A stretch of DNA of 64,000 nucleotides, taken from the NCBI GenBank assembly GCA_030141605.1, contig JAQGDQ010000238.1, positions 124,001 to 188,000 on the forward strand, given 5' to 3'. The position numbers were made by a program, and so were the translations under genes. Of the stretch, positions 5,887-64,000 are shown in pieces; the stretch's first letter is position 1, and every line of letters starts with the position of its first letter. The DNA is from Tubiluchus corallicola. Lineage: Eukaryota; Animalia; Priapulida. The notes beneath the pieces were generated by a model. The model had not been told where the DNA came from. It did no database searches and saw nothing but the letters and a program-made list of their open reading frames with translations.

Positions 5887-6974
5887 TTTTATTATTAAAT
5901 TTTGTTCAAACACTGTAGATTAAAGACTCAGTAATTCAAGAAATACAGTACAAACATTATCAAACAGAATTTAACAGTAGTAAAGGAAAGGCCAAGCCTT
6001 CTGCAGAGTTAGGCTTACTTCAATGTTGGCGAAAGCGTTAGAAAGATTTAGTAATAAAATTCAGTGAGATAAGCGCCTCTTGTAATTAGTAAAATCACTT
6101 TAATTAAAGTCGCGTTCATTTCAAGCTTCAGTGACAGCTCGCATTTTGAAACCTCCATTTTTCCAACAATGACATTGTTCACCGGCTTAAGAAAAGCAGT
6201 GCACTGCCAATTTACGTCAGAAGTGCAATACGTTTTCACAAAAAATAGACAGACAATTTTGCGACATTTTTGCATGATTATTAGGTAAGCTACAGAAATC
6301 TGAAATAGTTTAAGCAGCTCGCGCTTACGAAAAGGCGCGATTTAAGTCCTCCAATCACATCATAATTTTCAATGCCCGAACATTTCTATACAAACAGCAT
6401 TATAGACAGTTTTTGCAAATTTCTTTGTTATATTTAACTAAGTTTAATAAAATAATGGTAAAATAAACCAAACGTGCTAAATGACTTGTCCTTAATAAAA
6501 AAGCGAAAACAAATTAATAAATAAGCTTACTTAAGTTAGAAAGTTTTAAAAAAATTGGTATATTCTTAGTTTCTACTTAAAGACAGCATAATGTAAAACC
6601 TAATTCACAAGCACAAAAGTTGGGAAATGTTTGTTCACTTTTAATTTTATACTATCTTGAATTTATCAAACAATTGTTTAATATTGATCTGTAAAATTGT
6701 TTAATGCATGTTTACACGGAAACTGATACTAAGCTGTGGAATTGTTTACAAGTTGTACATACCTTGGACAGACTACTACATCCCTTTGCTGTTCTAATGT
6801 TTCAGCTTAACATTAAAATTAGCACAGTAAAACTCACGATAACATTTTTCTATTTTTAAGTATTAGTTATAAGAATTTATTGGTATACTGAATTGTCAAT
6901 ACAGTGATAAAACGCTTCTCTGAGAGCTACTTCGCGACTGTTTGTCCAACCCTAAACCGAATCCTAGACCTACA

Positions 6975-7233
6975 CTAGAGGAAACCTAGAGGAACCCTAG
7001 AGCAACACTAGAGGAATCCTAGAGCAACCCTAGATCAACCAAGAGCAACCCTAGAGCAACAGAGCAACCTAGAGCAACCGTAGAGCTATCCTAGACCTAA
7101 TCGTAGACCCACCCTAAAGCAACCCCAGAGCAACCAAGAGCAGCCCTAAAGCAACCAAAGAGCAACCCTAGAGCAACACTAGAACAACCCTAGAGCAACC
7201 ATAGGGCAACCCTACAGCAATCTAGAGCAACCC
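6975..7233. repeat. 11-bp minisatellite (CTAGAGCAACC)n, degenerate
   Basis: More than 20 variant copies of TAGAGCAACCC. Confidence 0.9.
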
Positions 7234-8896
7234 TCTTTACAGACACACACAATACGCAGTAAAGTAATAGTAAAATGAAACGACTGAAACAAAACTAGAG
7301 GTGTTTAAATATGATTATCAATCTCTTGTATTAAATATAATGCAACTGTAAACTATCACAAAGGTCATTCAGCTTAGCCAACTTAGCAAACCAGTATTTT
7401 CTCCAAAAAAAGTCTTGCATCGTGAGCTATATGAACTATAATAATTTGACGTAACAAGCCTCGCACCCTTATACATCCCCATTAAAGTAGTTTAAAACGT
7501 ATTAAACTATTATAATTATCATATTATTATAATTACATGGATGTTGTCTGGCGCAGCGGCCCATGTCTCCTTGTCGTTAGTAACGTGACAAACAAACTAA
7601 TTTCCCGAAATTGCTCGAATTTTTCCTTTCGTGTTGCACATCAATTACAGGTGTTATACAAGCAATTTAAAGAATTCTTGTCGTAATTTCAAAAAGTTGT
7701 GATTTTTCGTATTTCATGCTGCATTGGCATACCTCAATACAGGTAACTGTGTTGTAAGCACATATACATCAACAATATTAGATCCTAAAAACCTTTACTC
7801 GATTTACATTTTAAACAGGAGCCAACGTTTTTAATTATAATTCGGAAATCCTTCAATCTACGTAGCCGTACCAGGTTACAATCCAAAATGATAAGAACCT
7901 GATTTTCCAACATCGAAAGTTTCAAATTAGAAGAAAGTGGCTAAAAGTCGCGGTTTAATTTTGTTACAAAGTTAAGCAGCACTGGGTCTAGCTAGTAAAA
8001 TAATACGTGATCGCTCAGAGTAAACAGTTTGATCTGCCATTCAGGTTATTTATCTTGTTCAGGAATGCGGTATAAACATCCAAATATGGCTTAAACAGCC
8101 CTGCCGGTTCTGTATTACATTTCATTAATTAATTCTTGATAATTAGCAAAATCACCAGCGCCTGGTTATCCTATAGGCTAGCATAGCTGCAGTCTAGGGT
8201 CACTCAGCCGTGTGGGGCCCTCAACCTTTAGTAACATTCGGTAAAAAATGTTTCACTACGCTTGTGTTGAAATATGTGATCAATTGGTTTGTATTAAACA
8301 GTAAAGTAGTGGCATTTCTTAAAGACTATTTTTATTGACAAATAAAAGATAGTTATTCTAGTTTATTTAAAGAGTTTACAATAAGTTTACTGCAAGCTAT
8401 ATAAATGTTGTGCGTGCGTGTGACAGAGTGGGTAATTCCATAATTCCAGCCAAAGGGGCATAAAAAGTCATAATCCAGCCCTGAGTATAACGGTACTGCG
8501 AGAACTAGTAACGTTAATATGCAGTATAGCAGTTAGCAGTTATACGGGGTTGAGTATAAAAAGCTAATATGACTGTAAGCTAATATAACTTACATATGGC
8601 TGTAAATAAAAGAACACTCAAAAATAATAACTTTTCACTTGTTCAAGATCATTATGATAGTTTTTAGCTATTGTCGGTTTATCTACTATTATTGTTTTGT
8701 ATTTCAGAATTGTCGTCAGTCAATAAATTTCAAATTAATTAAAATGAACGAAATGCAGACACAATAGTAATTGATCCGACTACATATTACGTATTAGTAA
8801 TCGAAACGTCATATTCTGATTGCTATTTTTAATTTTTTCGCTTTTAAGTTTTTTTACTCTGAGTATTTTTGCGTTGGTAGGTTATTTTATGCAGTG

Positions 8897-39493: not shown

Positions 39494-42312
39494 GCCACAA
39501 AGCAGTTGACACCAGAAATATAAAATTTTCACTAATTATTTGTTCTCTTTCAGTGCAGAAAAATTATTTGAAATATTTGAAGTTAAACACATTTATACAG
39601 TTAGCAGCTACTTCAATTTGGCTTAGTTTATTTTTAGCGTTGTACATAATTTTAGATAACAGAAACACTTGTTTTACAGATAGTGTTCTGATTATTAAAA
39701 ATTTTACATTATTTTTCCTCTTTAAATTAGATTATGCCCATGTGCCCAACGTACTACATTTCGCATCTTTCTTATTTTCCCCTTCAGTGGTTTTTGTCCT
39801 AAACCGCACCTAGTAGCTGACAGTATCCCTATTGTATCATGTAAGTGACCATTTCTGACCAGCGACACGTATTGTATTGCATTAGGAAAGTGACCAGTGT
39901 CCGAATCTAATGTAAATACTGAGACTAATTTATACGTCCTGGTGAATTGAGTGGGCACGCGAACACCACTTTAAATGTTTGCTAAAGTTAAATCCGTCTG
40001 CAGGTGCGCAAACTGTGATAGTCTTCAAGGGCAGAGCAAACTTGAGGTTCTTGCAAATATCAACAGTTTAACACGTTTACAAAGATGTTTCTACGTATTT
40101 TCAGAGCATTTGCATCTGGTAAAACAGCGCCAAACTAGCGGTTTGCTGCAGCGAATGCGCAGCGAGAAAACTAACTTTGATCATTTTTTAATTAGGTTTG
40201 TTCACTTAAAGTCGCTTGAGAACCCCATTGCTTTGAAACTTAAACTTATGTGCAATGATCATCGGTTAATAACAGCATGCCTATCACTTAATAATGACTA
40301 AACCATAGCCTCGCAAAAACAAGGATGTAATTAACTATTAGTGATACTAATAAGGTAAAACTGGATATATAAAGTTAAGTCATGAAAATTTTTTTTGGAA
40401 AACCTTACTTTCTCATAAACGCACTTGTTTATTTGACGTACCTGTATAATTAATTTGGGTGGCACACACGCACGCACGCACGCACACACACACACACACA
40501 CGTTGAGTTTAAAACTTTTAAATGCACCTAAACCATTTTGAGATTAATTATTTTTATGATCTTTAATTTCATTTCAATTAATCTGCGAACTGCCGCAATT
40601 GTTTGCTAAATTGTAATAAACCCATTTTGTTAAACTGTGTGTGTAAACAAAATGGGTATCTATACTCTGTTCTTATACTTAAAGTGAGAAAGCGTACAGC
40701 AACTCAGCAAATAAACTAACTCATCTCAGCAGGTACCTGCCTGATTCAGCAACAATAATTTAAAATGTAAATAAACTTCCTGATAAATATAAACAAAAAA
40801 TTGGATAAAAACTGTAAATGTATTTACCAAAAAACAGCAGCAAACAATTAATAATTTATAACAATTAACAGCTAACAATAAAATACTCTTCACTATAAAT
40901 TTTGTTAATCACAAATTCATACAAAAACAATTATTAAGAAACCAATAATTACAGCTACAATTACAATCGATACTTTCAATACACACTTTACCAAAACTTA
41001 AGTGAAATCCATACAAATACACGGTAAACAAGAAATTTTGCAAAAAGGTGTCTGAAACACATATAATTGACAACAAAGCATGTGGTACAAGGATCATTTG
41101 ATAAATAACAATTTATTTAATTTAGTAATAGAATTAAAAATTAATAACTAAATTATTAGTTGCTAATAATTTTGGACTAAAATGAACAGCAATTAAATAA
41201 ATGATGAAACTGTAATTAATTCATTAATAAAGGTTGGCATTGTAGCAAAGAAACTTTCATTATTTATTTAACACACGTTTTGCTCCATGTAGAGAAGCAC
41301 GTGTTAAATAAAGTATAATTAAATCTTTGTTTAAATGAATTTAACAAACATTGAGACAAACATTAAACAGCTTTTGAAATAAACTAATCGAACATTATTA
41401 CAATACGTGAAATTTGACAATACTGTAAACTGAACAGTTAAATAAAAAATATCTTGATTCTAACAACAGCACAGTGAAAAATAACAATTCATATTTTCAG
41501 ATAAGAACTAAAATGCAATGTTATCACTATAAAATTATGTGATCTGCTCTAACAGAAACGGTTTTTTGTTTAGAATACAGAGAGGTAATTGATACAACAA
41601 AATTATGCTACATTAGAAACTCAATGAATGCGTTTGAGTGCAAATGTGACTTTCGAAGTAATTGAGCAGTAATTCACAACTGCAAGTAAAAAAGAGTTGA
41701 AAACATAGTAAAAGAAAGTAAAAGAAATACAGAGAAATACAGCGATAGATAGTACGTAACAAAGCCTGCACATTCTAATAACACACAGAATCACTGACGT
41801 GAGTAGGTAGCAGCCGTACAGTAATTAAATGGAAAATAAATAACTCTTCAAGACAATTTAGTTGGAGAAATTTTGTCATGTTTACAAAGGTTAATGCTGG
41901 AGTATCATACTGGACAATAAAGTTTTAGAAGCAATTTTACATTATACCAGCTATTAGTATGGAAATCATCTTTTACGGAACTGCTATAGCCAAATTTGCC
42001 ATATCACTTCAAGGATTAAGTATATGAACACTTACTCAACGAATAAAAATTTCGTATAAATTAGACAAGTAAAGTTCTAGACAATTCTAGATTTATATAC
42101 TGTACGTCATACAATGCTATTAACCTTTATGTGTATTAACAAATATTAGATTCCTTTGCGGCTGCTAGCAGCTTGCTTTGTTCTAGTAGCTAGAGAAACT
42201 AGAAACATACCTAAACAACAAAATATTAATACATTTTCTATATGACTAGGATTCTATGCCAACTGAAGCAGTCAGTGGCAAGTCTGCTTGTGAGGCAGTA
42301 TACTAGTCACAA

Positions 42313-43052
42313 TTAATAAGGCTTTTCACTTGTATGTGTTCTCAGATGAGAGTGCAAATGGGCTGACCGAGTAAATGCTTTATCACATTTATAAGGCTTC
42401 TCTCCTGTATGTGTTCTCAGATGACGGTGCAAAGTAGATAAGTGCGTAAATGCTTTATCACATTTGCAACATTTATAAGGCTTCTCTCCTGTATGTGTTC
42501 TCAGATGACGGTGCAAATTAGATAACTGAGTAAATGCTTTATCACATTTGTTACATTTATAAGGCTTCTCTCCTGTATGTGTTCTCAGATGACGGTGCAA
42601 ATTGGATGACAATGTAAATGCTTTATCACATTTGTTACATTTATAAGGCTTCTCTCCTGTATGTGTTCTCAGATGACGGCGCAAAGTAGATAACTGAGTA
42701 AATGGTTTATCACATTTGTCACATTTATAAGGCTTCTCTCCTGTATGTGTTCTCATGTGATGGCGCATATTTTGCACTCGCACAAACCTTTTGCTACACC
42801 GAATGCACTTATGAGGTCTGGAACCACTATGCAGTTTTAAATGTTGTTGTAGATGTCCTGACTGTGTGAAATACTTATCACATTTTTCACACTTATATGG
42901 CCGCTCACCAGTATGAACTCTAGTATGGTGAAGAAAATGAGATTTCGTATTAGTTGAGTAGTGACAAGAATCACAAGCAAAACGTTTGCTGTTGTTGCTG
43001 AAAGTTTGACAGTTGTTACTAGGCCCGTATCTTTGCACCGTGCCTCTTGAAT
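42313..43052 (-). CDS. PRDM9: PRDM9 terminal exon: tandem C2H2 zinc-finger array (7 complete fingers and 1 truncated finger)
   Basis: Acceptor TTATTGTAG, phase 1. Repeated [11 protein letters not shown].....L..H.RTH units. Stop TAA at 42313-42315. Confidence 0.95.
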
Positions 43053-46000
43053 CTACAATAATAAAGCAATTATTTTACTGGTGATCAAAATTATTTACAG
43101 AACAATGGGATTATTCAGTAATTGAGTCCATGTTTTTTTTAGAAAGAGGAATCTATGCAGGCAATAGAGATAATTCAGAAATTGAGTTCATGTTTTTCAG
43201 TATGCTATTCCTCATAAAATTCAAATGCGCAGTAATTTTAATAGTTGCACAGCAAAAGTAAAACTTAGCATTATTCTTGAGCAAGTCAATATCTCCAAGA
43301 TTTGCAACGGTTCCTTTTAGAATGATTTTACTATTATTATCGTGATATGATTTTAAAGCAACTTTTTGAAATGAGTGCACTTGTTCTTTTTGCAATTTTT
43401 TCCGAAATGCTAAATAAATGGCAATAAACTGAATTCTTAAAGCAGGACTCGAGCTATGATTACAATTATTCTACACAAAAAGTTACTGAATGATTGATGA
43501 CAGCTCAAGTCATGGCTTAAAGCACAAGAAAACCATCCATTTACATAAAGTTTAAAAAATACGTCTTGAAATCTTGTGCTACTTACATATTGCTTTTATT
43601 GCATACAGGACCTGCATCAGCAGTTGAAAATTAATAAATTTTCTTTTCTAGTTACATAATACTTTCAAACAGTTATATAACGAAAAATTTTTTGGGACAT
43701 AGGTTAACTACATTTTCTTTTCTTCCCATGATTTATTTTGTGCTTATATCATCAACACAAAGATCAGCATTATAGATACAATCATGGCGCCATCAGATCA
43801 ATATTGTTAGAAATTTAAAATGAAAACGAACGAAAATGCCCTTTAACGCGAGTACGACACATGCACAAAATTGCTGTAAACTAATATAATTTTCTAAAGC
43901 GTTTTTCCGAAACCTAATTCAGGTACTCCTTTTCTTGTCCTTTAAAAGTTTTTCTCTTTTCAACATATTTGATTTCATCGCTAAGTTTAAATTTATTGCA
44001 ATTTATGTTCACATTCACGAACGTGCAATGTACTGCAATGTTACATGCAACATACATTTAACATGTAACATGCAATATACATTTCTATGCAGAAAGTCAG
44101 ACTTGTCCAGCATCCAGCACTCATTATCGGGTTTTATTTAATGTTGATCGTTGTGGCAGGACCAAAACCTAATTCATCAAGGTTAATGTTTTAAAATGAG
44201 GAGCTAAATTGACAAAGTTATCTCAGCTCTATTGTAACATGAATGAGCCTTCTTCAACGAGTTAAATATAGCGAGAACCAGCACAATGAAAGAAACCAAC
44301 AAATGAATCTGATGATTATCCATTCATTCACGTAAGGGCCGTTTTTTAAAGCAAAACCAGATCCAATCTTAAACTGCAGGTCAAAACAAGCTACTATTTA
44401 AAATATTGAAAGGAAATATACTACTTTTTCAAAAATTACTTACGTGAAAGAATTATTACCACACAAACACAATTTTGCATTCGCGCCACTAGTTCTTCTC
44501 TCTTAATGCAGTTCGCCATTCGCTAATTGGACGGTAAACAACGGCAAATTTGAAATTTGAATTTTTATCTTAAAACTTGCCGAGTTTTAGTACAATACGC
44601 TGAATATCTTACAGTAGCACTGTACATAAATTTTCGTTTTCGCAAAAACACATGCAACACGCACGTGGAATAACTTTGCTGTTGAATTATGTTAGTTTGT
44701 GATGTCATCAATAGTTGAGCACGTCCGCCGTTAATTAACTTTTTAATCTATTATTTAAATATCAGAAACGCTTTTGCAGTATTAATTGGGTTGAAATGTA
44801 TACTTTTTATTGGACTTAAAAATGGAGTAGTATATGACAAATCATCCTGTCTATCTTTAATTTTGACTACTGTATATATAAGTAACTACATCTGTGTGCT
44901 ATTGTCAGCTATTGCCAGCATCAGATATTACTCAGCTATTGCCAGCACCTCGTGAATATGTATCTGCAAATGTATGACTGAAATGTAAATATTAAGATTT
45001 TGTGTCAATCAGATATAACAGATTGGTATGAACTAGGAAATGACAGATTAGTAAGGTAACATCACAGGCAAATATTAGGTTCCGGTCCGGAAGCTACGCA
45101 TTATCAAAACGTACAATACCTGCTACATTGGCATGTTGAAAGTTCATGCAATTTACACTTTGGCTAAATGTCACTGTGCACTCACATACAATAATGGTGT
45201 TCCAATACATGAGGTTTCTTTAACTGTTTTCATTTTAAAGTAAATTTTTATGGTTCAGTGATCAAGAAATGTCCTACTGAAATATTAACAGATATTATAA
45301 ACATAGTACAGCATCATACATAGTAATAACATATAAGATAATATTACCTGTATATTCCAAATGTACCAGTTTACGATGTTTATTAAGATCTCTCATGTTG
45401 CCAGTTGTGAAATCACATTTAGGACACTGTATATGGATGGACACTACAGGTAAATGAAAATGCATGATAATTATTACTTAGACAAAAATGTAGATAATAC
45501 TAAGCTGATAAGCTGACAGTATTATACAGTGGAACCTTGACTTACGAAAACCCTATTATACGAAAAATTCAGAAAACGAATCGGGCTTCGAAGAAATTTC
45601 CGGCCCATTTAACGCAAAAATATTCCAGATACGAAAACGAAAATCGAAAGTGCCGCCCGATTGTGGTCCTCCCAGAAAACATTTCGTAGCATCACGTGAA
45701 TGCTCTGCAGGTGAATGCTTTGTTGTGCTCTTATCTTACACATTCGCCAACTTGAAAGGCAAAGTGTCATTATTCGTAGCAACATTTATTATTATTATTC
45801 ATTGATTTTTTTATTTTTTCATTGTTTTTTAACATTCATGTAAATGATAATGTGTCATTAACGAACATATTTCTTTTGGGCGGGTACAATATTTACACTT
45901 TTTTCGACTGTTTTTTTATGTCTGAAACGAATTACGCCATTTATAGGGTACATAACCTTGTCACATAATACGAAAATTCTAAGATACGAAAGCCCCTCCG

Positions 46001-49000
46001 GAACGAATTAATTTCGTATCTCGAATTACGCCATTTATAGGGTACATAACCTTGTCACATAATACGAAAATTCTAAGATACGAAAGCCCCTCCGGAACAA
46101 ATAAATTTCGTATCTCGAATTACACCATTTATAGGGTACATAACCTTGTCACATAATACGAATATTCTAAGATACGAAAGCCCCTCCGGAACGAATTAAT
46201 TTCGTATCTCGAATTACATCATTTATAGGGTACATAACCTTGTCACATAATACGAAAATTCTAAGATACGAAAGCCCCTCCGGAACGAATTAATTTCGTA
46301 TCTCGAATTACACCATTTATAGGGTACATAACCTTGTCACATAATACGAAAATTCTAAGATACGAAAGCCCCTCCGGAACGAATTAATTTCGTATCTCGA
46401 ATTACGCCATTTATAGGGTACATAACCTTGTCACATAATACGAAAATTCTAAGATACGAAAGCCCCTCCGGAACGAATTAATTTCGTATCTCGAATTACG
46501 CCATTTATAGGGTACATAACCTTGTCACATAATACGAAAATTCTAAGATACGAAAGCCCCTCCGGAACGAATTAATTTCGTATCTCGAATTACACCATTT
46601 ATAGGGTACATAACCTTGTCACATAATACGAATATTCTAAGATACGAAAGCCCCTCCGGAACGAATTAATTTCGTATCTCGAATTACACCATTTATAGGG
46701 TACATAACCTTGTCACATAATACGAAAATTCTAAGATACGAAAGCCCCTCCGGAACGAATTAATTTCGTATCTCGAATTACACCATTTATAGGGTACATA
46801 ACCTTGTCACATAATACGAAAATTCTAAGATACGAAAGCCCCGCCCACTGTATCTGATAATGCAGTACATTGAAATAAACTTTTAATTGCCTTTTAGGAT
46901 TCCTCTAAAAAGTCAGGTTTGAGAGTTTGAGTAACAGACTAACAAGCTTCTATGCTTCAACAACACCGGGTCTCTCTCTCTTTCTCTCCTTCCTTCCCTT
47001 CCCTCTCTCTACCCCCTCTCTCCCCCCTCTCTCTCTCAGTATAGCTCTACTAGTCTACAATTTCCACACTAACTTATTCAACACAACTTATTGTCTGTTC
47101 TGTGCTCAGTACTGATAAGGGTATAACTGTGCATACATCCAATCGTATGCTATACGATACTTTGTTTTACACATCGGATACATTACCAGGCATCAATCGC
47201 ATCGAATGCTTACAATCACTCGCTTACCAGGTGTCTGACATCGCATCTCTTTAGCACGATGATTTTCCAAACCCAGTTCCTTTGCATACGAATCGCCATA
47301 AAACACCAGTAGTTCAACAGCCTCTGGTACAGTTTCAAATGATCTATAGTATATTCCACCCTTATACTGAAAAGCTATGAGATTTTGTTCTTCATCACAT
47401 CTTGCGCAGTTCACGTATCTCATCCAATTCGACTTACTTTTCTTTTCCGCATCTATATAGTGCGATACCTTGCCATGCTTCATGATCTAAACATAAAAAT
47501 TATTACTGATATATAAAAATGCATTTTGCACAAAGGATTGTACTAAAAAACATGTCATGTTTGTTACCAAGTTAAGTGAAAAATTAAGTATATCTACAGA
47601 GAAAAAATAAAAATAGAGATATATAAGAATCCAATTAAAACCTATAAGAGTCTACAAAGGCAAAGAAGTTACATTATTTGACATCCATGAACAAGTGTTT
47701 TGTACATAGAGGGAAGTGAATAAAGCATAATGCATACAGTACATACTGCCTATATAATTTAAACAAACATTCATGTGTCTGGATCAGTCTGGTGAATTTT
47801 TAGACCTTAGAATTAAAACAATTGCGTTTTTTGTTCCAAAGGGTTCAATGAGGCCTGCTAATAACACTTGAGTGACACTGTTGTGCAAATTCGACAAAAT
47901 TTGAAATGATCACACTTTTACCTGCCAACAGTAACCGGTGATATGTGCCTCATTTTCACTGATGTGACGCACCACGCCTTTATAAGGTCCAAATACCCAA
48001 CCTGCAGGTACAGGTTTCTCTGTCCAGACTCCAAGACCAGCACCTCTAATAGCAGACAGACCAACGGAAAGAAAATCAGGGATTGTAGCATCGGCATAAC
48101 TGCTGAAAGAATGTCCCTTTCCTACCTGATCGAAAGAGATAATGTCATTACCGGTAATTTGTTTACTTGGTTCGTAAAACAATCCATTTTGCACCAGAAT
48201 TTTAGACGACTGAATTGGATTAAACCCCTCATTTATAGATGAAAATGAAGATCTGCAATTACTATTATTACCTATATTTGCAAATGTCACACATTCTCAT
48301 CACTTCATTTAGGTTAAAAATATGACATTCGTAGTTTTGTTGCTTTAGTTTTCACATAAAAGCTATAATATATACTTACCTTAGTATCAGGTACGAAGTG
48401 CATAGGACCATGTACAGGACAATCGCCTTCATATTCCGTTTCACAGCGATCACAATCTACAAAAAATTCTAGTGTTATAACTTCCACTAAAAACAACATG
48501 AAGATGTTAGCAATTTATTTACCAGTTTTCATTAAAATTACTTTAGTGACATGATTTCCACAGAATGTAAATGCTCCACTTACATAGAAAATCGTCATCG
48601 TCTAGTAATTCTGGTTCAGCATAGTTCTTTCGTGGAATATTGCGCATAGAATAGCGACGTAGCCCTCTTTCCTTTGAGTCAGATTTTGTTTTTTGTTTTT
48701 CAGCATCATCTTTTGATGCACCCTCATCTAGATGTGCTTCTCTCTGAGGGGATGTCTCCTTTTGTTGGTAAATCAAAACCGTATCTGAATTCTCCTTGCC
48801 CACTTTGAGATCTGACACGTCTTTCTCCTGTTCTAGTAAATTGTCATTATCACACAATGGACTGTCAGTTTGATGTTCAAAGTTGGATCTCGCATCATGA
48901 CATACGCTGCTGTAAAGCTTATCCTCTTCTGCTCCACCAGAACAGCATTGCAGGTTCTGATGGGCTGCCTGGTTTGGCAAACTACATTCCTCTTCCACCG

Positions 49001-52000
49001 TGTCTAAAATACACAAAACGTTTCAACAAATATAACCAAATTTGTAAGAACAAAAACTATCACAGATAAACTATTATGACTATGTGTCATAAATTTATAA
49101 ATTATTATAAACTTAAAACACTTACATCTGATAAAAGTAACTTCTCAATCTCAGTCACTTGCAGTCAAAACTCATTATAATGCCACCTTTTATAATGCCA
49201 ACCTTGTTTGACGCCAATACTTTTTGCAAAACCTATGTCTCATTTTTGCACAGACATGTATAATGATATTAATTTACCTTGTTATAATGCCAAACTCATT
49301 TACGTCAACTTTTTTGCAGTCACAATATAGGCGGTATAAGAGGTTTGACTATATGTAGATAATGAACAGCATAAATGAAGATCTATTCTGCAAGCCTCAA
49401 TACAATACAATATTATATATCATATTATCAATAAAATATTATATCTGATCTGCTATGAGTTTATAGCATTTAAGCTTCGACAACATTATTCCCTACATAA
49501 AGCTAGCTGCCAAGCTTTGGAAAGTCAGGCAATTCTGATGGCAAAAAAGTGTAAATTGCCCATCTGTTACACCTTTAAAAGTAGTCCTTACCAAGCTTTC
49601 TATCGCAATGCATGTTTGTTCTTTCGACTCCTCGGTTGACTTTGCAATGGTTTCTTGTAGAAACAAAAATATTTTGCTGTGCAATTTTTTTCAACAGTGT
49701 CTTTTTTGTCTGTGTAGTTATCAGATGGTTGTTTTTTTTGTTCTTCTAGTCTTTCACTATTGGTATTATTCCATAGTGGCAATCACCTATGTAACTATAA
49801 CCTATCTATTTCTCATAGTCATCTACTTGCACTTGTTTTACCACTTTTGCTTTGCTCAGCCTTTTAATTTTGTTAGTGGTTTTTGGTGTCAAAAGTGATC
49901 TCACCAGTGATAAACTGCCACTTTACAGATTTTGGTTCCAAACATACCAGATCACGACTTTCCCGACAACCATATTTTTGTTTTTGTGTTTGTATCTTTT
50001 ATTTTGTTCTGAATCCACAGCAAATGGGCACAACTGCCTATCCCTGCCAAGAAGTTAATCGTTTTTAGTTTTCAACAGGCAACACAACATGATCAATACG
50101 TCTTTTTTAACTAACCGACATTCTCAGCGTAATGCATTACGTCTTCAAATGGGTGCTCATCTATCTGTTCTTCTTCTTCTTCTTCGTTATCATCGTCATT
50201 TTCACTAGTATTAGATGAACTCAAATCAGCATCAACGAAAGCTTTAGTGAAGTCCAATTCCCATTGAGCATCTACAACCAGGAAGAAATTGGAAGCACTA
50301 TCTACTACATTATGCAACACATTTACATCAACTGAGCAAAAATTAGAAAGGTCAACAAAACGTTTAGCCCAAAACATCGAGGACAAATTGAATGAAAGGC
50401 AACTTAGATGCAATTTTGGTCCAGAATTACATGCTGCATAATGTAGTGTTAATAAAAAATGAATTTTACACGTGACATACATGTAAAAAACAACCACCAT
50501 AGTCAAAAATGAAAACCACAGACTTAGCAATATTTCACTTGCCAAAATTGTCGAATGTTTTCAAGGGCAGCAAACAGTGAAGAAGTTGCTACCATCAATC
50601 AGTCAATGAGCTGTAGCAATTACCAGTTACAGACGTTTTTTCAAATGCCACAAAACAATAGGAATCCCATGCTTCGTGTGAGCAGCACGGGTTTGATACT
50701 CTCTCTGGGCGGAATCAAGTGAAAACTTGTAAAGGGAGGATGCACATCTGAATTTTGGCTGAGACACTGCTGCCAATTCAGTGAAAAGTCATGCTCTCAT
50801 CACGTAACAAATATGCCTTTGAGTATACCCTCGTTTTAAGTACTGTCTGGTGTGCAATGTGCCAGAGTGTATAAAAAACACCAGAAGAACAATGAAGTGC
50901 CCTAAAATTCTATAAAATTTGGCTACCTTTAATTTGGCGAACAGAAAAGCCATGAAATGAAAGTTCCAGTTGATCACTTATAAACAATGCTTCTACAATG
51001 GAGGAATTACCATGGACTGAAGTATGTGGAGCCACCAGCTAGGAAACAATAATTGACAGATTACGAAATTGTAAAATAAAATAAAGAATTAAAACAACAG
51101 AAAAAAATGAATCTTAACTTGCTTAGTAGTTTACATGTTTAGGAATCATTTTTCCTAACTGCTTAGGGACTGCTTAAAGATCAAATACAACATACTTTGT
51201 GAAGCTTCAGTTTTACACAAAAACAGAATGGAAATGCTCTAACTAGAATTTTCTGATATCTTTACTATTTCAACAGGTTTATGCAAAAGGAAATTGGGTA
51301 CGAAGGTGTTATTTCATAAGATTCCCCACATTTAACTCGCTAGACGATGCCAGCAAATTACGTGAAGTGCCATGTTTCCCTGTGTAATATTGTTTACAAA
51401 TTCAGCACCACAGAAACGACATGGTATCCAGGGAACCATTGCTTGCACAGTTATTTAGCATGTGATTTTCTGAAGTTTCAGAAGCAAAACCAAACAACAT
51501 GCTTTAGGAGATAATACAAGTTCGAAGCCCGATTTCATTAGGAAAGAAGCCGTGAAATTTAGTAAAATTAGTGTCAAATTTTAAGTTACTGTTAGTTCTT
51601 TTAATTAAAGAATACTTAATTTTGACCTCTAACAGCCAAAGCTGTTCTAAAATAAGGGTAACAGAACCTAGCATCTTATACATTGGTAACTAATCATGCT
51701 ACACTTACGCGTACGGTGCGTCAATAACACACATTACATGAATAAATATAACTAATTAGGCTTCTTTTTGCAGTTGCACCGCCCTCTTGTAGCAGCTCTA
51801 CATATCTCAAAAATTTTAAAAACATCATTAACACAGTGAACACCTGAAATACATTATACGAACTTTCTCATTAACCTTGTCACTTGCACCGCTTTTATTT
51901 ATAGCTAAAAAACTGTTGCGTCTTGCCGAGACTTGTTTTCTATCAATCACTTCCTCTTTAGATGGGACCCATTCATCATCACTATCATCAGCATCACTAT

Positions 52001-53281
52001 CAACATTGTCATCCGTATCGCTGGTGTCACATAGGGCGTTTCTTCTCTTGTTCTTGGTCGTCTGACTTGGTTTTCTTGGCAACATAAAATCAGGCTTCCG
52101 AGGGTTCAAGCCTGAAATATAAAGAAATCTGAGTTATAACAATATTTACGATTCTACTCATGACACCTCTACAAATTAATTTGAAGCTACACAATCCACA
52201 CATTGTCATATAAACTTTTGATTTGCAACTTGCATTTACTGGCAGCACCAGTGCTGCGCGGCTTGACTATATTGTACATTTTCTATGTCATTTTTAATCT
52301 TATAAACAGGTAGATGCGCTGTTTGCAAGCTTGTATTTAGCACTTAATGCGTGGCTAAACAATTTTCATTGTTCTAGGGTGACTGTGATTTAGCCTATCA
52401 TCAGAATAATCCTCTGAAACAACATGAGTTACTAAACCGAGAAGGCAACTCCTGGCAATTGCCCATCCATTTCTGAGAAATGGTCAACTTTACTTAACTG
52501 TCATAGCCAAAAAACGCCATCACCAATCAACCATTCCTCACTCTCTCAAGCAAACATTTCTACAAGGTGTATACAACGAACATACCTTTTCCAAAAAATG
52601 TATACTAAACAATGAAACCTGTTTAAAACAGGTGAGTAAAATGGTTGTAAAAGTAAACCTTTGATTACTAACAATGGCTAATAGATTCAGTCTGTTAGAC
52701 TGGTCAAAGACTGGTCAATCTGTTAGACTGGTAAAATGGGTCAAAGAACCTTCATCCCAAAGTGATTTATTAAACAGCACTTGCTGTTATTGAAACAGGG
52801 TTCCCACAAAATTTTAAAATAAGTTTTCCTGACTTTTCCCTGACCAATTACTAATTTTCCATGACCAAGATAAGTAGAAATTGCATTACCAGTATACATA
52901 TTCATACATTTTTGTGTATGGACATTCATCAGAAATCGAAACTGGGAGCCTGCTATAGCAAAATTTTATTTGAACACGAATAGCTGAAAAATATGTTTGG
53001 AAAGATATCGGTGCACGGTAACTATTTCTGTAATCCTTTCCAATTTCCCTGACTTTTCCATGACATTCCAGGATAGCCTGTAATTTCCAAGATTTTCCCT
53101 GACTGTGGGAACCCTGTTGAGACTTACCTAGTGAAACCATCATGTCATAATTCTCCTTGATGCTTCTAAATCGAAGCTTCTCTAAATCGCAAAAGGTATC
53201 AAACTCGTCTCCGAAATACATCCGCAAATCGTCATCATTTTCCACCTCTTCATCAGGTGCAGCAAGCTCAACGGCATCCAT
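42313..53281 (-). CDS. PRDM9: PRDM9-like histone methyltransferase, full-length (KRAB-SSXRD-zinc knuckle-PR/SET-post-SET ZF-C2H2 array); spliced gene, 9 coding exons, ~741 aa
   Basis: Exons 53281-53128, 52111-51864, 51038-51011, 49003-48584, 48456-48380, 48125-47922, 47486-47228, 45443-45348 and 43052-42313 join with GT-AG introns and matching phases. The total is 2226 nt with no internal stop. Domain order and motifs match vertebrate PRDM9/7. The 28-nt exon and the exon-2 donor are the least certain parts. Confidence 0.92.
42316..42755 (-). repeat. 84-bp coding minisatellite (zinc fingers 4-8)
   Basis: The blocks ATAAGGCTTCTCTCCTGTATGTGTTCTCAGATGA and GTAAATGCTTTATCACATTT recur almost identically every 84 bp (75 bp for the last unit). 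Confidence 0.95.
45348..45443 (-). CDS. PRDM9: PRDM9 exon: single post-SET C2H2 zinc finger (absent from the ORF track)
   Basis: TTTACCTGTAG acceptor. Reads (V)[31 protein letters not shown], a CxxC-x12-H-x4-H finger. CAG|GTAATA donor; 96 nt, phase 1/1. Confidence 0.85.
45527..46850. mobile_element. Non-autonomous Tc1/mariner (Tigger/pogo-like) MITE with internal tandem array, in a PRDM9 intron
   Basis: TA|CAGTGGAACCTTGACTTACGAA at the left end and CCACTG|TA at the right end, consistent with a TA target duplication. Subterminal TACGAA motifs. Confidence 0.75.
45928..46842. repeat. 94-bp tandem repeat, ~9.7 nearly identical copies
   Basis: The unit CGAATTACRCCATTTATAGGGTACATAACC...CCGGAACGAATTAATTTCGTATCT starts at 45928, 46022, 46116, 46210 ... 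46774. There are no spacers. Confidence 0.97.
47228..47486 (-). CDS. PRDM9: PRDM9 exon: PR/SET domain, C-terminal half
   Basis: [49 protein letters not shown]...[15 protein letters not shown] contains the PRDM9-type [15 protein letters not shown] motif. Acceptor TGTTTAG and donor G|GTAAGC, phase 1. Confidence 0.95.
47922..48125 (-). CDS. PRDM9: PRDM9 exon: PR/SET domain, N-terminal half
   Basis: VGKGH...[22 protein letters not shown]...GWVFGPYKG...GYCWQ includes the FGPY tyrosine. Acceptor CTCTTTCGATCAG and donor CAG|GTAAAA, phase 0/0. Confidence 0.93.
48380..48456 (-). CDS. PRDM9: PRDM9 exon: pre-SET zinc knuckle
   Basis: (Y)[25 protein letters not shown] gives a CxxC-x7-CxxHGP knuckle. 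TTTTTTGTAG acceptor and AAG|GTAAGT donor. Confidence 0.93.
48584..49003 (-). CDS. PRDM9: PRDM9 exon: acidic linker and SSXRD motif
   Basis: Acceptor TATTTTAG (phase 1). Ends [25 protein letters not shown], compared with the SSXRD pattern YSLRERK..AYKEVSEPQDDDYL. Donor T|GTAAGT, phase 1. Confidence 0.9.
49162..49351. mobile_element. ~190-bp Tigger/pogo-like MITE (degraded)
   Basis: Left CAGTCAAAACTCATTATAATGCC and right GGCGGTATAAGAGGTTTGACTA form an imperfect inverted repeat. Internal TTATAATGCCA motifs. Confidence 0.65.
51011..51038 (-). CDS. PRDM9: Putative 28-nt PRDM9 micro-exon (LVAPHTSVH)
   Basis: TTGTTTCCTAG acceptor and G|GTAATT donor. It converts phase 0 to phase 1, which is what is needed to join exon 2 to the SSXRD exon. 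No homology support. Confidence 0.5.
51864..52111 (-). CDS. PRDM9: PRDM9 coding exon 2: KRAB-B-like segment and acidic DSDDEWVP motif
   Basis: Acceptor TTTCAG, phase 1. (G)LNPRKPDFM...[14 protein letters not shown] parallels PRDM9 GLRATRPAFM...DSDEEWTP. The donor is either AAA|GTTCGT (exon ends 51864) or AAG|GTTAAT (ends 51876); both are phase 0. Confidence 0.85.
52796..53116. mobile_element. 321-bp non-autonomous DNA transposon (MITE, hAT-like termini)
   Basis: Perfect 13-bp TIR CAGGGTTCCCACA...TGTGGGAACCCTG. Repeated TTTTCCCTGAC subterminal motifs. Flanks TTGAAA and TTGAGA may be a 6-bp target duplication with one mismatch. Confidence 0.8.
53128..53281 (-). CDS. PRDM9: PRDM9 coding exon 1: ancestral KRAB-A domain
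   Basis: MDAVEL...[36 protein letters not shown] resembles the PRDM9/SSX KRAB pattern (DISIYF..EEW..M..WEK.RY.NVKRNY..L..IG). ATG at 53281 follows an in-frame TGA at 53338. Phase-1 donor G|GTAAGT at 53127. Likely acceptor TTTTTTAG at 53355. Confidence 0.88.
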
Positions 53282-53392
53282 GAAAAAGCTTGTCACGTCT
53301 ACTCTAACACTTTCACAGTTAGCAAATGTTGAGAATCAAACACTATTTTCTATCCTAAAAAAGTGTTACAGAGTAAAGCTGAAATACTTTCT

Positions 53393-53490
53393 TATGTGGT
53401 GATGTAACTCATATATATTATAATGTTGAGCTACACAAATATGTGGTGATGTAGCACATATATATTATAATGTTGAGCTAAACAAATATG
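53393..53490. repeat. 47-bp tandem duplication
   Basis: TATGTGGTGATGTA...TATATATTATAATGTTGAGCTA.ACAAA occurs twice in tandem. Confidence 0.85.
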
Positions 53491-55842
53491 TTTTACTTAC
53501 ATTGAAGTTAGTGTTAATTACTGCATAGTACATGCAAGTATTTGAGCATTCACTCTACAACCCTATAAACCATGATCAACAACTAAAGGCTGCAAGTATT
53601 AGTTAGCATCGGTATAAAAGGAACTGAATTTTCATGACGGATGTTTCATGGAAAACTTTGGCTCATTAGACTGAAAGTAACAAAGTCATTATTTTTAGGT
53701 TAGGAAGGGCAGCATGCATCATATGATTCATCACTGTTAATATGACTAATTATTTCTTTGAAAATTATTATGCTGTGAAATTTTACAGAATAAATGAAAT
53801 TTAGGAAAGCATGCTCTTGTCTCAGCTGCTCATAGTAGATGTGTTTTCTTCAATGCTCTTTTGCTAGAAAGACTGTTTTATCAATATTGGCTGTATTACA
53901 CAGTATATGGCCAGATGCACTTAACTGAATAGAGCTGCTGTAAAGCACAGAAAACAAGTTTAGATTTGTAAAATTGAGCTGTGTTGCATTACAAGTGATA
54001 TGTTGTGCAGATAAATTGATAAAATAATAAGACACCATTGCTAAAAAATTGGTTTATAAAAAATCCCCTTCATACTTCAGAAGCTATGAAAAGGCTTCTC
54101 AAGGCCAGTCAAAATTTTTTTAACAGGCAGAAGTATGATTATGAATCTATTTTGCAGTTAAATCAATATGTGTAGAGCACAGAAATTTTGAAAACAAGTA
54201 AAAACTATTTAAATTTGCAAAGATATTAATTTACCAATTTTCATGATCCACTGATGCAAACTTTTGGCAGAGGGTGCTGCATACCCCGTTTTCCAGAAAA
54301 ATTGAGTCAGAGGTTTTGCGTTTCTACTGTTCCGACAAAAAAGACTTTTCCAGTGAACTTGCTTAAAGTGCTGACCTCTGAAAAGTGCTGCCCGGGCAGG
54401 GCTGTCCCTTCCTAACCCATTCACTATACCACTGATCTCATGTACACAATGTACACATTTACAATAAGAACAAAAAAGTCATTTACAATTACTGCAAAAA
54501 AGACCAGTTGTCACTCAAGGCAAAGGACTATCGCACTTTTTACCAACTGACTTCTGTTCAGTTCAAACAGTCTACTAAATTACCTTTGTAATATTTTATG
54601 GAAGATAAATAAATTTTTTTGAATATGAAACAAAATTATAATATAAATAGAAATTTGTTATGTTCATAACAGAATTTGCTAGTAATTAATAGATGGTTCC
54701 TACTGTCTTTGGGTGGTTGAGGTAATGAGATTGCAGTAGACTAGGAGCTATATTCTTCTAAAAATTGGCAAGAACTTTAAGAAAGAAGCCAGAGCGAATG
54801 GATTTGTAAGGAGCTGCACCTAGGAATGCCCAGAGTAGCTTTCATAACTAGTGGCATCGACAAAAGGAGAACCCTTTTCATAAATAGAGCAATAAAAAGT
54901 AACATGCTTTCACTCATTCAGTGAAACAAGATATATTGCAAGCCTGGATTAAATTATCTAATTCTAATTAAGGCAAAATTTGATATTGTTTTTAGTTGAT
55001 ATTTTTAAAATTGTTGTCACTGTTAGTGTACGAAATAGTCTATTTTCCTGGTGTAAAAGCAGACGTTTGCGAAAAGCATGATAGCGACTTACTGCAATAA
55101 AGAACCCTGGGGTAGTCTTTTAAATGAATGCACATCACTTAGACAGTCACAGTGAAATTCCAACATTTGATTTACTAATAGTAATTAAACGTATTTGTGC
55201 GAAACGCACACAATATTTTTAAATATTGTTAAAACATTCTTCAACCTCAGTACAAACTGATTTACCAACCAATTACTAAAGTGCCCGCCCAAGTGATAAA
55301 TATGATGGCTCCTGAACGTCAACTACACTCACGAATAAACATGCCAGTAAATGTAATCCTACAAAATATCTACTTAATACCTACAATTAAATTTGAAAAC
55401 GCACTTTTCTACTTTTCTGCTCTGCAGATGGCTGCGTGCTGCAAGCAGGGACTACTTGCATTGCACAATTTTTTTCTTTTTTTAACTTCGCAATTTAAAT
55501 GACAAAGCAGAGCATTCCTAACATGCAGCTGAACAGCTTTAGTATGGCATTGTATTTATAACATATAGTTATAATTATAATTATTAATAATATAATTAAT
55601 AATCTACATTAATAACTGATATTAATTCGGTACTAATACTCTTACTACTGTTAATAATAGTACTACCGGTAATACAATATTTATATTTTGACCTTCCATT
55701 TGCTCTCTAACCAAATGAATTTAACATATAGTTATAGTAGGATTTTCTTAAAATGCTAACTTAAGTGTTAACCAAAATTCTAAAAATGTGAGAGGAGATG
55801 AGAGAATTCCTAAGGGAAGAAAACGGAAATTGAAAAGCAGAG

Positions 55843-56040
55843 CAGCAACAGTAACAACAACAACAATATTTAAACAACAGTAATAACACGCATCACGACC
55901 ATTATTACTGCCATTGCGAACACGAGTGATGCCAATAATGATGATGATGACGACAACAACAATAACACAACCACAAATAGCACTACCGCATCAACCTCAT
56001 AGCAACCGAAACAACAACAATGACAACATAAACAACAAAC
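55843..56040. repeat. Degenerate (AAC/GAT)n trinucleotide tract
   Basis: Directly visible. Confidence 0.7.
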
Positions 56041-59069: not shown

Positions 59070-60200
59070 ACGAGCTACGCGGGAACGATTATTCATTACG
59101 ACTATTCTCCCTGCCATCGAGTATGGTAACGTAGTATAGTCAGGATGCAGTGAAAACAGTATACGTTTGTTAGAAAATGTTCAGCTAACTGCTGCTAGAA
59201 TCGCATAACTGGCGCTATGTTTCGATCTTCCCCTGCAAGTATCTTGTCTGATAGCGGCTTCACTAAATTAGTGACACGCTTCCATTATCATCGCCTATGT
59301 CTTTTTTCAAAATAATCAATGACTTAGTGCCCCACTATTTAAGTGCAATTCTGCCGCCAAAGGTAAACGAAGTTACCCCCTATTATATACGCAGTGGTAC
59401 TAAATACAGAAATTTTAATTGCCGTTCTGTTAGCTGTGAAAAATCGTTTTTTATATCGACCATTAACATGTGGAACAACTTACCACAGAACATTCGTGAA
59501 ATTACATCCATTTCACAATTCAAACAAGAGCTCAAATCTCATTTAAGTTTTTCGTTGCGTAAGAAACATTTTTCATTTGGTAAACCTCCAATATCAGTGC
59601 ATCATACGCGCATGAGAATCGGATTTTCTCAGCTAAACTATGACCTTTTCTCTAAAGGCTGTAAAGATAATAACGGTCATCCAATATTGCCGAATTGTAA
59701 CTGTGGATTTCGATTTGAGTCTGTTGAACACTTTTTGTTGCACTGCCCATTGCATCAACTACCTAGGGTAGTTATGTTTAATAAATTAAATGCAATACTT
59801 CTGCCCGAAAACCTTAATATTGCTGTCTTAGGAAATAATGATCTGTTGAAGTTGTTATTATTCGGTAAAGATGAATTTAACTATGTTACTAACTATAAAA
59901 TATTCCAATGTATACATGACTTTATATTATGTACTAAACGCTTCCAGTAGTTTCTATCTGATATAAAATGCATCATTCTTAAATAATCGTACATTAATAT
60001 TTACTAACCGTCATTTTCTACTAATGTCTAATGTATCACTGTAGTAAAACTTTAGTATACTAAAGTATACTACAAACTAAGTATAGTCTATTCTTACTGT
60101 AAATGTTCTTGTCAATAGTGTGTAAAGTCTGTTGTGGTGAGGATCCTAAATCATGTTGTACAAACTGTCTGATCCAATCCTAAATAAATTATGTTTAAAC
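59070..60200 (+). mobile_element. Degraded CR1-like LINE 3' fragment
   Basis: Frameshifted ORF2 C-terminus: ILPAIEYGNVV*..LLENVQLTAARI/ITGA..., FKIINDLVPHYL, SFFISTINMWNNLP, HTRMRIGFSQLN, CNCGFRFESVEHFLLHCP. The 3' end reads AATAAATTATGTTTAAAC. Confidence 0.85.

Positions 60201-60976: not shown

Positions 60977-63213
<2,237 letters not shown>

Positions 63214-63300
<87 letters not shown>
63214..63300. repeat. (GA)n/(GACA)n microsatellite abutting the LINE 5' truncation
   Basis: Directly visible. Confidence 0.98.
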
Positions 63301-64000
63301 GGTGCAGAGAAAAGGAGATAGAGAGAGAAGGGGAAAAAGAGAAGGAAAGAAGGGAAAGGACGAAAAATCGTATTTCCTTAACAACATTTTCTTAAAAACA
63401 ATTAGCAAGATGTTATAGGAGCCTAAGAGTAGAAAAGTATCCTTTCTCTCCGTCGGTGAAGTGCCTCACTTCACCTCCTGCTTTGCCATTCTTCCCATTA
63501 TCAAGACAGAATTGCTTATAATTGCACCACTGTCTTTGCCTAAATGTTTGGAATCAAGCAACTTGAATGGGAGGGTACGCTCGCATACGAGGCTCTGTCT
63601 TCTAATTCGGCTAATTAACGGCAATTATCCAAAGTCAAACTGAGTTAATGAACTGTTAAAAATATTATAGTCCGTAATTAGCGGTCAGACATCTTCCCTG
63701 CGCACTTAAGTTTCGCAATAAGTCAGGATGTATCAAGCATAGTTATTGCAGTAATTAGTTGTTAATTATGTTTAGGAAATATTTGCCCCAAACAGGGTTC
63801 GCTCAGTAATTGTGATGTTATCTAATGAAAGAAAGTCAGAAAGCAGCTGCATAGTATCATAATTACGCTGGGTTCAACAGAGTTTAACACAAGCGAAGGG
63901 TATAACCCAGGCAACACGACGAAATTGCCCCAATGTTGTCACAATACTTTCTGCAAATATTTTGACAATATGCACATTGTACCAACATTTTTATCAATAT

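What the first reader, a model, noticed from the sequence alone, without database searches (positions are those of the whole stretch)
42313..53281. Intact four-domain PRDM9 in an apparently invertebrate genome: a candidate PRDM9-directed recombination hotspot system
Seen: a phase-consistent 9-exon ORF with KRAB, SSXRD, knuckle, PR/SET, post-SET finger and finger array. The tyrosines in FGPY, IYYR and LLVFYG are all present. Established: these correspond to human Y276, Y341 and Y357, needed for H3K4/H3K36 trimethylation, and in vertebrates the complete KRAB+SSXRD+SET form with a fast-evolving array is the one that positions meiotic double-strand breaks. Inference: the host looks like a non-vertebrate bilaterian, where PRDM9-like genes have been noted but hotspot function is largely unproven. 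This locus has every sequence hallmark of that function.
Basis: partly seen in the sequence, partly recalled or inferred. Interest (0 to 1): 0.88.

Follow-up and report, generated by a model that had tools for sequence, protein, structure and literature searches.

The report
Invertebrate PRDM9 with half-frozen finger array
This is a real, apparently intact invertebrate copy of PRDM9, the gene that marks where chromosomes recombine in mammals; such copies are already known in many invertebrates, and this one likely marks recombination sites too, although its DNA-reading fingers look less fast-evolving than usual.

Summary
The gene is real. Minus-strand exons at 53281–42313 join in phase into a 737-aa open frame: ancestral KRAB, SSXRD, zinc knuckle, PR/SET, a post-SET finger and a C2H2 array. 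Both SET exons match PRDM9 best among solved structures, and the three catalytic tyrosines are present. All 8 listed SET-exon differences in an independent sample are synonymous. Splicing is unproven, and a 28-nt third exon is a guess.

Novelty is low. Full-length invertebrate PRDM9 is in print (cnidarians, termites), 14 of 62 named invertebrate relatives fetched here have the same architecture, and this scan earlier noted a sea-urchin copy on other DNA.

'Every hallmark' is wrong. Only 0.233 of finger diversity lies at DNA-contact sites, the lowest of 46 KRAB-bearing arrays (median of the others 0.50). The array has three old divergent fingers, four homogenised ones and a broken last one. The KRAB also lacks one helix residue.

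Verdict: an ordinary new PRDM9 member from a probable protostome. Hotspot function is about even odds and untested.

The parts
53128..53281 (-). Exon 1: ATG, acidic leader and ancestral KRAB-A; one residue shorter in the first helix than other aKRABs
   Evidence: 38.0 bits over aa 18-61; gap at a column filled in 69 of 71 seeds; the other 2 are N-terminally cut; an independent-sample contig over 53078-53320 has 0 differences
51876..52111 (-). Exon 2: aKRAB-B (PxxFM motif), acidic DSDDEW motif, linker; donor weak and uncertain
   Evidence: alignment; PxxFM motif described in PMC8835667
51011..51038 (-). Putative 28-nt micro-exon restoring phase 0 to 1; unproven
   Evidence: best donor score of 6 candidates; without it a stop follows at aa 187; alternative phase-0 acceptors in exon 4 exist
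48584..49003 (-). Exon 4: acidic linker and SSXRD (about 48584-48674)
   Evidence: 25.0 bits, vertebrate-only HMM; null maximum 7.5 bits; all-taxon HMM 20.5 bits
48380..48456 (-). Exon 5: PR zinc knuckle
   Evidence: Pfam PF18445 E 1e-7; PDB best hit PRDM4, then PRDM11, PRDM9
47922..48125 (-). Exon 6: PR/SET first half; Tyr equivalent to human Y276 at 47982-47984
47228..47486 (-). Exon 7: PR/SET second half; Tyr equivalents of Y341 (47346-47348) and Y357 (47298-47300)
45348..45443 (-). Exon 8: single post-SET C2H2 finger
   Evidence: Pfam C2H2 hits
42730..42981 (-). Exon 9, fingers 1-3: old divergent fingers (42-65% DNA identity to each other and to the rest)
42394..42729 (-). Exon 9, fingers 4-7: homogenised 84-bp minisatellite block (89-95% DNA identity); contacts (-1,2,3,6) QSTR, LSNR, QSNR, HSTR
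42313..42393 (-). Exon 9 end: broken last finger (three residues short, one Cys left) and stop codon
42313..43052 (-). Exon 9 as a whole: terminal finger-array exon; first Met lies inside finger 3, so it needs upstream exons

Best explanation
This is a full-length PRDM9 orthologue of a probable protostome invertebrate, under purifying selection, whose likely spliced product would bind DNA through its finger array, trimethylate histone H3K4 and H3K36 nearby and so likely position meiotic double-strand breaks. Shown: domains, reading frame, catalytic tyrosines, synonymous-only SET differences among those listed, and a homogenised four-finger block. Inferred from vertebrate PRDM9: germline expression, methyltransferase activity, and KRAB/SSXRD-dependent recruitment of the break machinery with ZCWPW1/2 as readers. 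In this reading the four C-terminal fingers are the part that turns over, and the three N-terminal fingers are a fixed module that lowers the whole-array statistic. PRDM9 identity is about 0.95 likely; the hotspot role about 0.5.
For: SET exons rank PRDM9 first in PDB: 80.8 bits against PRDM14 64.5, PRDM12 55.6, PRDM11 44.0; 34.1 against MECOM 31.7. KRAB and SSXRD are found by vertebrate-only HMMs far above null. The model aligns end to end with a lamprey relative (aa 18-737, 38% identity). In the 40 variant rows shown for independent sample X4, 8 of 8 SET-exon differences are synonymous, 3 of 3 linker-exon differences change residues, and 29 are intronic. Fingers 4-7 are 89-95% identical in DNA, with residue changes clustered in the recognition helix; their contact-site share is 0.39, or 0.49 with the remnant, inside the published full-length range. 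Oyster Prdm9 and Zcwpw2 are reported high in male gonad (PMC12111275 passages).
Against: Whole-array contact-site share is 0.233, lowest of 46 KRAB-bearing arrays and second lowest of all 76 arrays. It is the only one of the 46 with three divergent fingers. Positions +2 and +6 are invariant in fingers 4-7. The last finger is broken. The KRAB helix lacks one residue and Pfam does not see KRAB or SSXRD. The knuckle exon alone matches PRDM4 better than PRDM9. The exon 2-4 link depends on an unproven micro-exon or a weak splice site. In termites, predicted PRDM9 motifs did not coincide with raised recombination.
Confidence: 0.5

Rival explanations
1. It is a full-length, selected PRDM9 copy that has left the hotspot role (Red Queen turnover slowed or stopped) and now acts as an ordinary sequence-specific methyltransferase, perhaps with a paralogue doing the meiotic job.
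For: Contact-site share 0.233 lies in the range of truncated vertebrate and cnidarian copies. Three old fingers, a broken last finger and a KRAB deletion. Precedent: rainbow trout full-length alpha2.2 (r = 0.367) is read as retired (PMC11703093 passage). The source sample has further contigs with other letters over SET exons and introns (a second haplotype or a close paralogue).
Against: Fingers 4-7 are recently homogenised with helix-centred changes. The statistic is meant to be ranked within a species, which could not be done. A collapsed assembly of the minisatellite would bias it down.
Confidence: 0.35
2. The exons do not form one full-length transcript: KRAB is detached by a wrong exon 2-4 link or transposon-filled introns, leaving a truncated XSZ-type product or a young pseudogene.
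For: The exon 2 donor is weak; without the micro-exon, joining to the best acceptor gives a stop at aa 187. Introns 1-3 hold multi-copy repeats, one about 10 nt from the exon 1 donor.
Against: All homologous exons are stop-free with canonical sites. Exon 1 is letter-for-letter the same, and the exon 2 region has 3 differences in about 500 nt, in an independent sample. Other in-frame splice routes exist.
Confidence: 0.11
3. It is another PRDM subfamily member (PRDM4, 11, 12 or 14) or a chance neighbourhood of separate genes.
For: The knuckle exon alone matches PRDM4 best. No tree with other PRDM subfamilies could be built.
Against: SET exons rank PRDM9 first. aKRAB plus SSXRD upstream of a knuckle and SET is the PRDM9 layout. 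The sequence nests among proteins named PRDM7/9-like.
Confidence: 0.04

Closest known systems
Vertebrate PRDM9/Meisetz (PDB 4IJD, 6NM4, 4C1Q)
   Same: Domain order aKRAB-SSXRD-knuckle-PR/SET-finger-array, three catalytic tyrosines, 84-bp finger minisatellite.
   Different: Array only partly homogenised (0.233 against 0.33-1.0 for full-length vertebrate copies); one-residue KRAB deletion; function shown in vertebrates, not here.
Protostome PRDM7/9-like proteins (Limulus P0038, Tachypleus P0046, Ridgeia P0039, Periplaneta P0082, Mytilus P0013, Liolophura P0031)
   Same: Best SSXRD-knuckle-SET scores: Limulus 55% and 224 bits, Tachypleus 217, Ridgeia 213; shared [14 protein letters not shown] knuckle.
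   Different: Long branch (0.77-0.87); no close relative found; most relatives have better homogenised arrays.
Cnidarian full-length PRDM9 (bioRxiv 10.64898/2026.09.07.749791) and termite PRDM9 (PMC12047536)
   Same: Full-length invertebrate PRDM9 with hotspot role inferred but not shown; cnidarian KRAB and SET are each split over two exons, as here.
   Different: Cnidarian full-length share 0.29-1.0 (0.203 in one doubtful case); this one is 0.233.
Rainbow trout Prdm9 alpha2.2 (PMC11703093)
   Same: Full-length copy with lowered contact-site share and some damaged fingers.
   Different: There, expression and allele counts are known and a second active copy exists; here neither is known.

Membership tests
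PRDM7/9 subfamily | PR/SET domain closest to PRDM9 among PRDMs | tested here: met
   PDB ranking; no phylogeny with other PRDM subfamilies was possible
PRDM7/9 subfamily | Ancestral KRAB at the N-terminus | tested here: met
   Own HMMs 30.9, 38.0 and 53.5 bits, null 6.5; Pfam and PDB negative; one-residue deletion
PRDM7/9 subfamily | SSXRD just before the knuckle | tested here: met
   Vertebrate HMM 25.0 bits, null 7.5; mammal-only HMM 8.2 bits, Pfam and PDB negative
PRDM7/9 subfamily | Zinc knuckle, post-SET finger and tandem C2H2 array | tested here: met
Hotspot-directing PRDM9 | Y276, Y341, Y357 equivalents | tested here: met
Hotspot-directing PRDM9 | Fast-evolving array (high share of diversity at -1, 2, 3, 6) over the whole tandem array | tested here: not met
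   0.233 over 7 fingers, lowest of 46; 0.39 for the last four; within-species rank not testable
Hotspot-directing PRDM9 | Concerted evolution of fingers | tested here: inconclusive
   Met for fingers 4-7 (89-95% DNA identity), not for fingers 1-3 (42-65%)
Hotspot-directing PRDM9 | Finger-allele polymorphism in populations | not tested
   No reads were laid on the finger exon
Hotspot-directing PRDM9 | One spliced transcript expressed in the germ line | not testable with these tools
   No RNA junctions were available
Hotspot-directing PRDM9 | ZCWPW1/ZCWPW2 in the genome | not testable with these tools
   No genome is held for this window
Hotspot-directing PRDM9 | Allele-dependent H3K4me3/H3K36me3 and break hotspots | not testable with these tools
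   Needs ChIP, SSDS or LD maps

The most novel reading that the evidence does not exclude
A full-length invertebrate PRDM9 caught leaving, or half outside, the Red Queen race: three frozen N-terminal fingers anchor a short fast-turnover block, giving semi-stable hotspots between the PRDM9 type and the promoter type, in a protostome lineage with no characterised PRDM9.
Probability: 0.2. Interest if true: 0.6.

Novelty: new member of a known kind. Interest (0 to 1): 0.27.

Why it matters
Whether PRDM9 directs recombination outside vertebrates is still open in the papers read, so any invertebrate copy is a possible test case. This locus adds one more sequence to an already long list. Molluscan or coral copies with contact-site shares of 0.6-0.9 are better test subjects. 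Its one distinctive trait, the split array, would matter only if population and hotspot data showed slowed turnover.

Tried and rejected
No whole genome is held, so no ZCWPW1/2, paralogue or within-species finger ranking. No RNA holder listed; this is no evidence on expression. The run guessed as RNA (X6) covered only intronic repeats, and no joint shown (15 rows shown, 49 not) matched an intron. Pfam and PDB missed KRAB and SSXRD, and a homologue search with exon 1 alone found nothing among 8 candidates. I rejected this as evidence of absence: Pfam KRAB or SSXRD is listed almost only for mammalian relatives, while own HMMs score well. The representative-protein search and the atlas never ran, so no PRDM1-17 tree. 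Host: 188 other low-repeat window ORFs of 58 aa or more gave only one reverse transcriptase and one sub-cutoff DUF hit. AU tests did not reject placement with vertebrates (p 0.136) or with arthropods (0.234) and barely rejected molluscs (0.049), so the host is not fixed. The 50114-50560 ORF was rejected as an exon: no Pfam hit, multi-copy in DNA runs. PMC13320716 had no passage on invertebrates.

Full report
Observation. Reading 41000-56000 and translating it gives a minus-strand gene from ATG 53281 to TAA 42313. Nine exons join with GT-AG at all eight introns, in phase, into 737 aa with one terminal stop. Eight exons carry homologous sequence. Exon 3 (28 nt) does not: it had the best donor score of six phase-restoring candidates. 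Leaving it out gives a stop at aa 187, but other in-frame acceptors in exon 4 exist. The linker is therefore uncertain, while an open frame is likely.

Domains. Pfam finds the PR zinc knuckle (E 1e-7), PR/SET on exons 6 and 7 (27.6 and 100.4 bits) and C2H2 fingers on exons 8 and 9, but no KRAB or SSXRD. HMMs built from 10 vertebrate KRAB and 30 vertebrate SSXRD segments of fetched relatives score the model at 38.0 and 25.0 bits. The best chance scores among other window ORFs and 1000 shuffles are 6.5 and 7.5. A mammal-only SSXRD HMM gives just 8.2 bits. The PxxFM and downstream W motifs described for aKRAB-B (PMC8835667 passages) are present. The KRAB lacks one residue at a column filled in 69 of 71 seeds. 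An independent sample has the same letters over all of exon 1, so this is not an assembly slip.

Identity. Against solved structures both SET exons rank PRDM9 first: exon 7 80.8 bits against PRDM14 64.5, PRDM12 55.6, PRDM11 44.0; exon 6 34.1 against MECOM 31.7. The knuckle alone ranks PRDM4 first. Model Y353, Y420 and Y436 align to PRDM9 tyrosines spaced 65 and 16 apart, as for Y276, Y341 and Y357 (residue names from PMC5519329 passages).

Host. Trees of 115 rows (10 multi-copy fish rows dropped, 5 too short; quick method) and 38 chosen rows (careful) put it among protostome PRDM9-like proteins, weakly beside arthropods (92 SH-aLRT; 84/87), on a long branch and outside a 100/99 vertebrate clade. 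AU tests do not reject a place with vertebrates (p 0.136). The host is thus probably, not certainly, a protostome. No other PRDM subfamily was available as outgroup.

Selection. Four coded runs were laid on 47100-53500; X4 is a different sample and study. Of the 40 variant rows shown (572 not shown), 11 are exonic. All 8 in SET exons are synonymous, and all 3 in the linker exon change residues. This fits purifying selection on SET, on a partial list. The source sample also has contigs with other letters over SET exons and introns, either a second haplotype or a close paralogue; this is unresolved.

Finger array. Exon 9 has seven intact 28-aa fingers and a last one three residues short with one cysteine. 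Fingers 1-3 are 42-65% identical in DNA to each other and to the rest; fingers 4-7 are 89-95% identical. I used the statistic of Baker et al. (PMC5519329, section 25 read whole). The share of amino-acid diversity at -1, 2, 3, 6 is 0.233 over the array, 0.39 for the last four fingers and 0.49 with the remnant. Of 130 proteins (129 fetched plus the model), 76 have an array of four or more fingers and 46 also bear KRAB. The model is lowest of the 46 (median of the other 45: 0.50) and the only one with three divergent fingers. On the last-four measure it is about 12th lowest of 46, so unremarkable. Published full-length values are 0.33-1.0 in vertebrates (Table 1) and 0.29-1.0 in cnidarians. An assembly collapse of the minisatellite, or a fixed N-terminal module, could explain the low value; neither was testable.

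What is known. The cnidarian preprint (10.64898/2026.09.07.749791; parts 1-5 of 7 and passages read; supplements not seen, and its list of 97 metazoan PRDM9 proteins may cover this lineage) reports 45 full-length copies in 28 species. PMC12047536 (passages) reports full-length termite PRDM9 and hotspots but could not link them. PMC2779102 (passages) reported concerted evolution in Nematostella, Lottia and Capitella in 2009. PMC4760075 (passages) counts Prdm7/9 among ancient metazoan subfamilies. PMC11703093 (passages) gives a retired full-length trout copy. PMC12111275 (passages) finds oyster Prdm9 and Zcwpw2 high in male gonad. In my own data, a search seeded with a mussel protein (best 120 of 386 listed, mollusc-biased) gave 62 named invertebrate proteins. 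Of these, 14 pass KRAB, SSXRD, three tyrosine motifs and four or more fingers (seeds score themselves, and strict motifs miss some). Seven searches listed no paper that shows PRDM9-directed hotspots in an invertebrate; most hits were seen only as listings.

Mechanism and verdict. By established vertebrate biology, the product would bind a finger-specified motif in meiocytes and write H3K4me3 and H3K36me3, drawing the break machinery there. Every functional step is inferred. I put the hotspot role at 0.5, a retired but selected copy at 0.35, a broken transcript at 0.11 and misidentification at 0.04. It is a new member of a known kind, interest 0.27; the split array is its only unusual trait.

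Noticed in passing
window 52794-53118: High-copy miniature element with 15-nt perfect terminal inverted repeats, hundreds of times background depth, ending about 10 nt from the exon 1 splice donor.
   Followed up: partly
window 45528-46852: Intron 8 holds an element resembling a Tc1/mariner- or pogo-type miniature (label recalled, not from a call) whose inner 94-bp unit is tandemly repeated 9.7 times at 98% identity.
   Followed up: no
window 49500-50800: Decayed multi-copy coding-like sequence in intron 3, with a 149-aa acidic ORF at 50111-50560; probably a DNA-transposon remnant; no Pfam hit.
   Followed up: partly
window 61396-63465 (-) and 59267-59950 (+): Reverse-transcriptase ORF interrupted upstream by an AG microsatellite (RVT_1 E 1.8e-26) and a 227-aa ORF that looks like the tail of a LINE (by eye; no Pfam hit).
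   Followed up: no
window 47100-48700, runs X1 and X2: Extra contigs with other letters across SET exons and introns, several shared with X4: a second haplotype or a recent PRDM9 duplicate.
   Followed up: partly
window 6947-7234: Degenerate 11-bp tandem repeat (26.6 copies) among many long microsatellites in a 34% GC, gene-poor window.
   Followed up: no
proteins P0096, P0097, P0109, P0114, P0119, P0122, P0126-P0128: Nine Dreissena PRDM9-like paralogues without KRAB/SSXRD scores and without the standard Y341 motif form one clade with the KRAB-bearing copy P0035.
   Followed up: no
proteins P0038, P0091, P0100, P0103: Horseshoe crab and tick proteins carry aKRAB, SSXRD and SET, although PMC4760075 inferred loss of Prdm7/9 in chelicerates from its 2015 sampling.
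   Followed up: no
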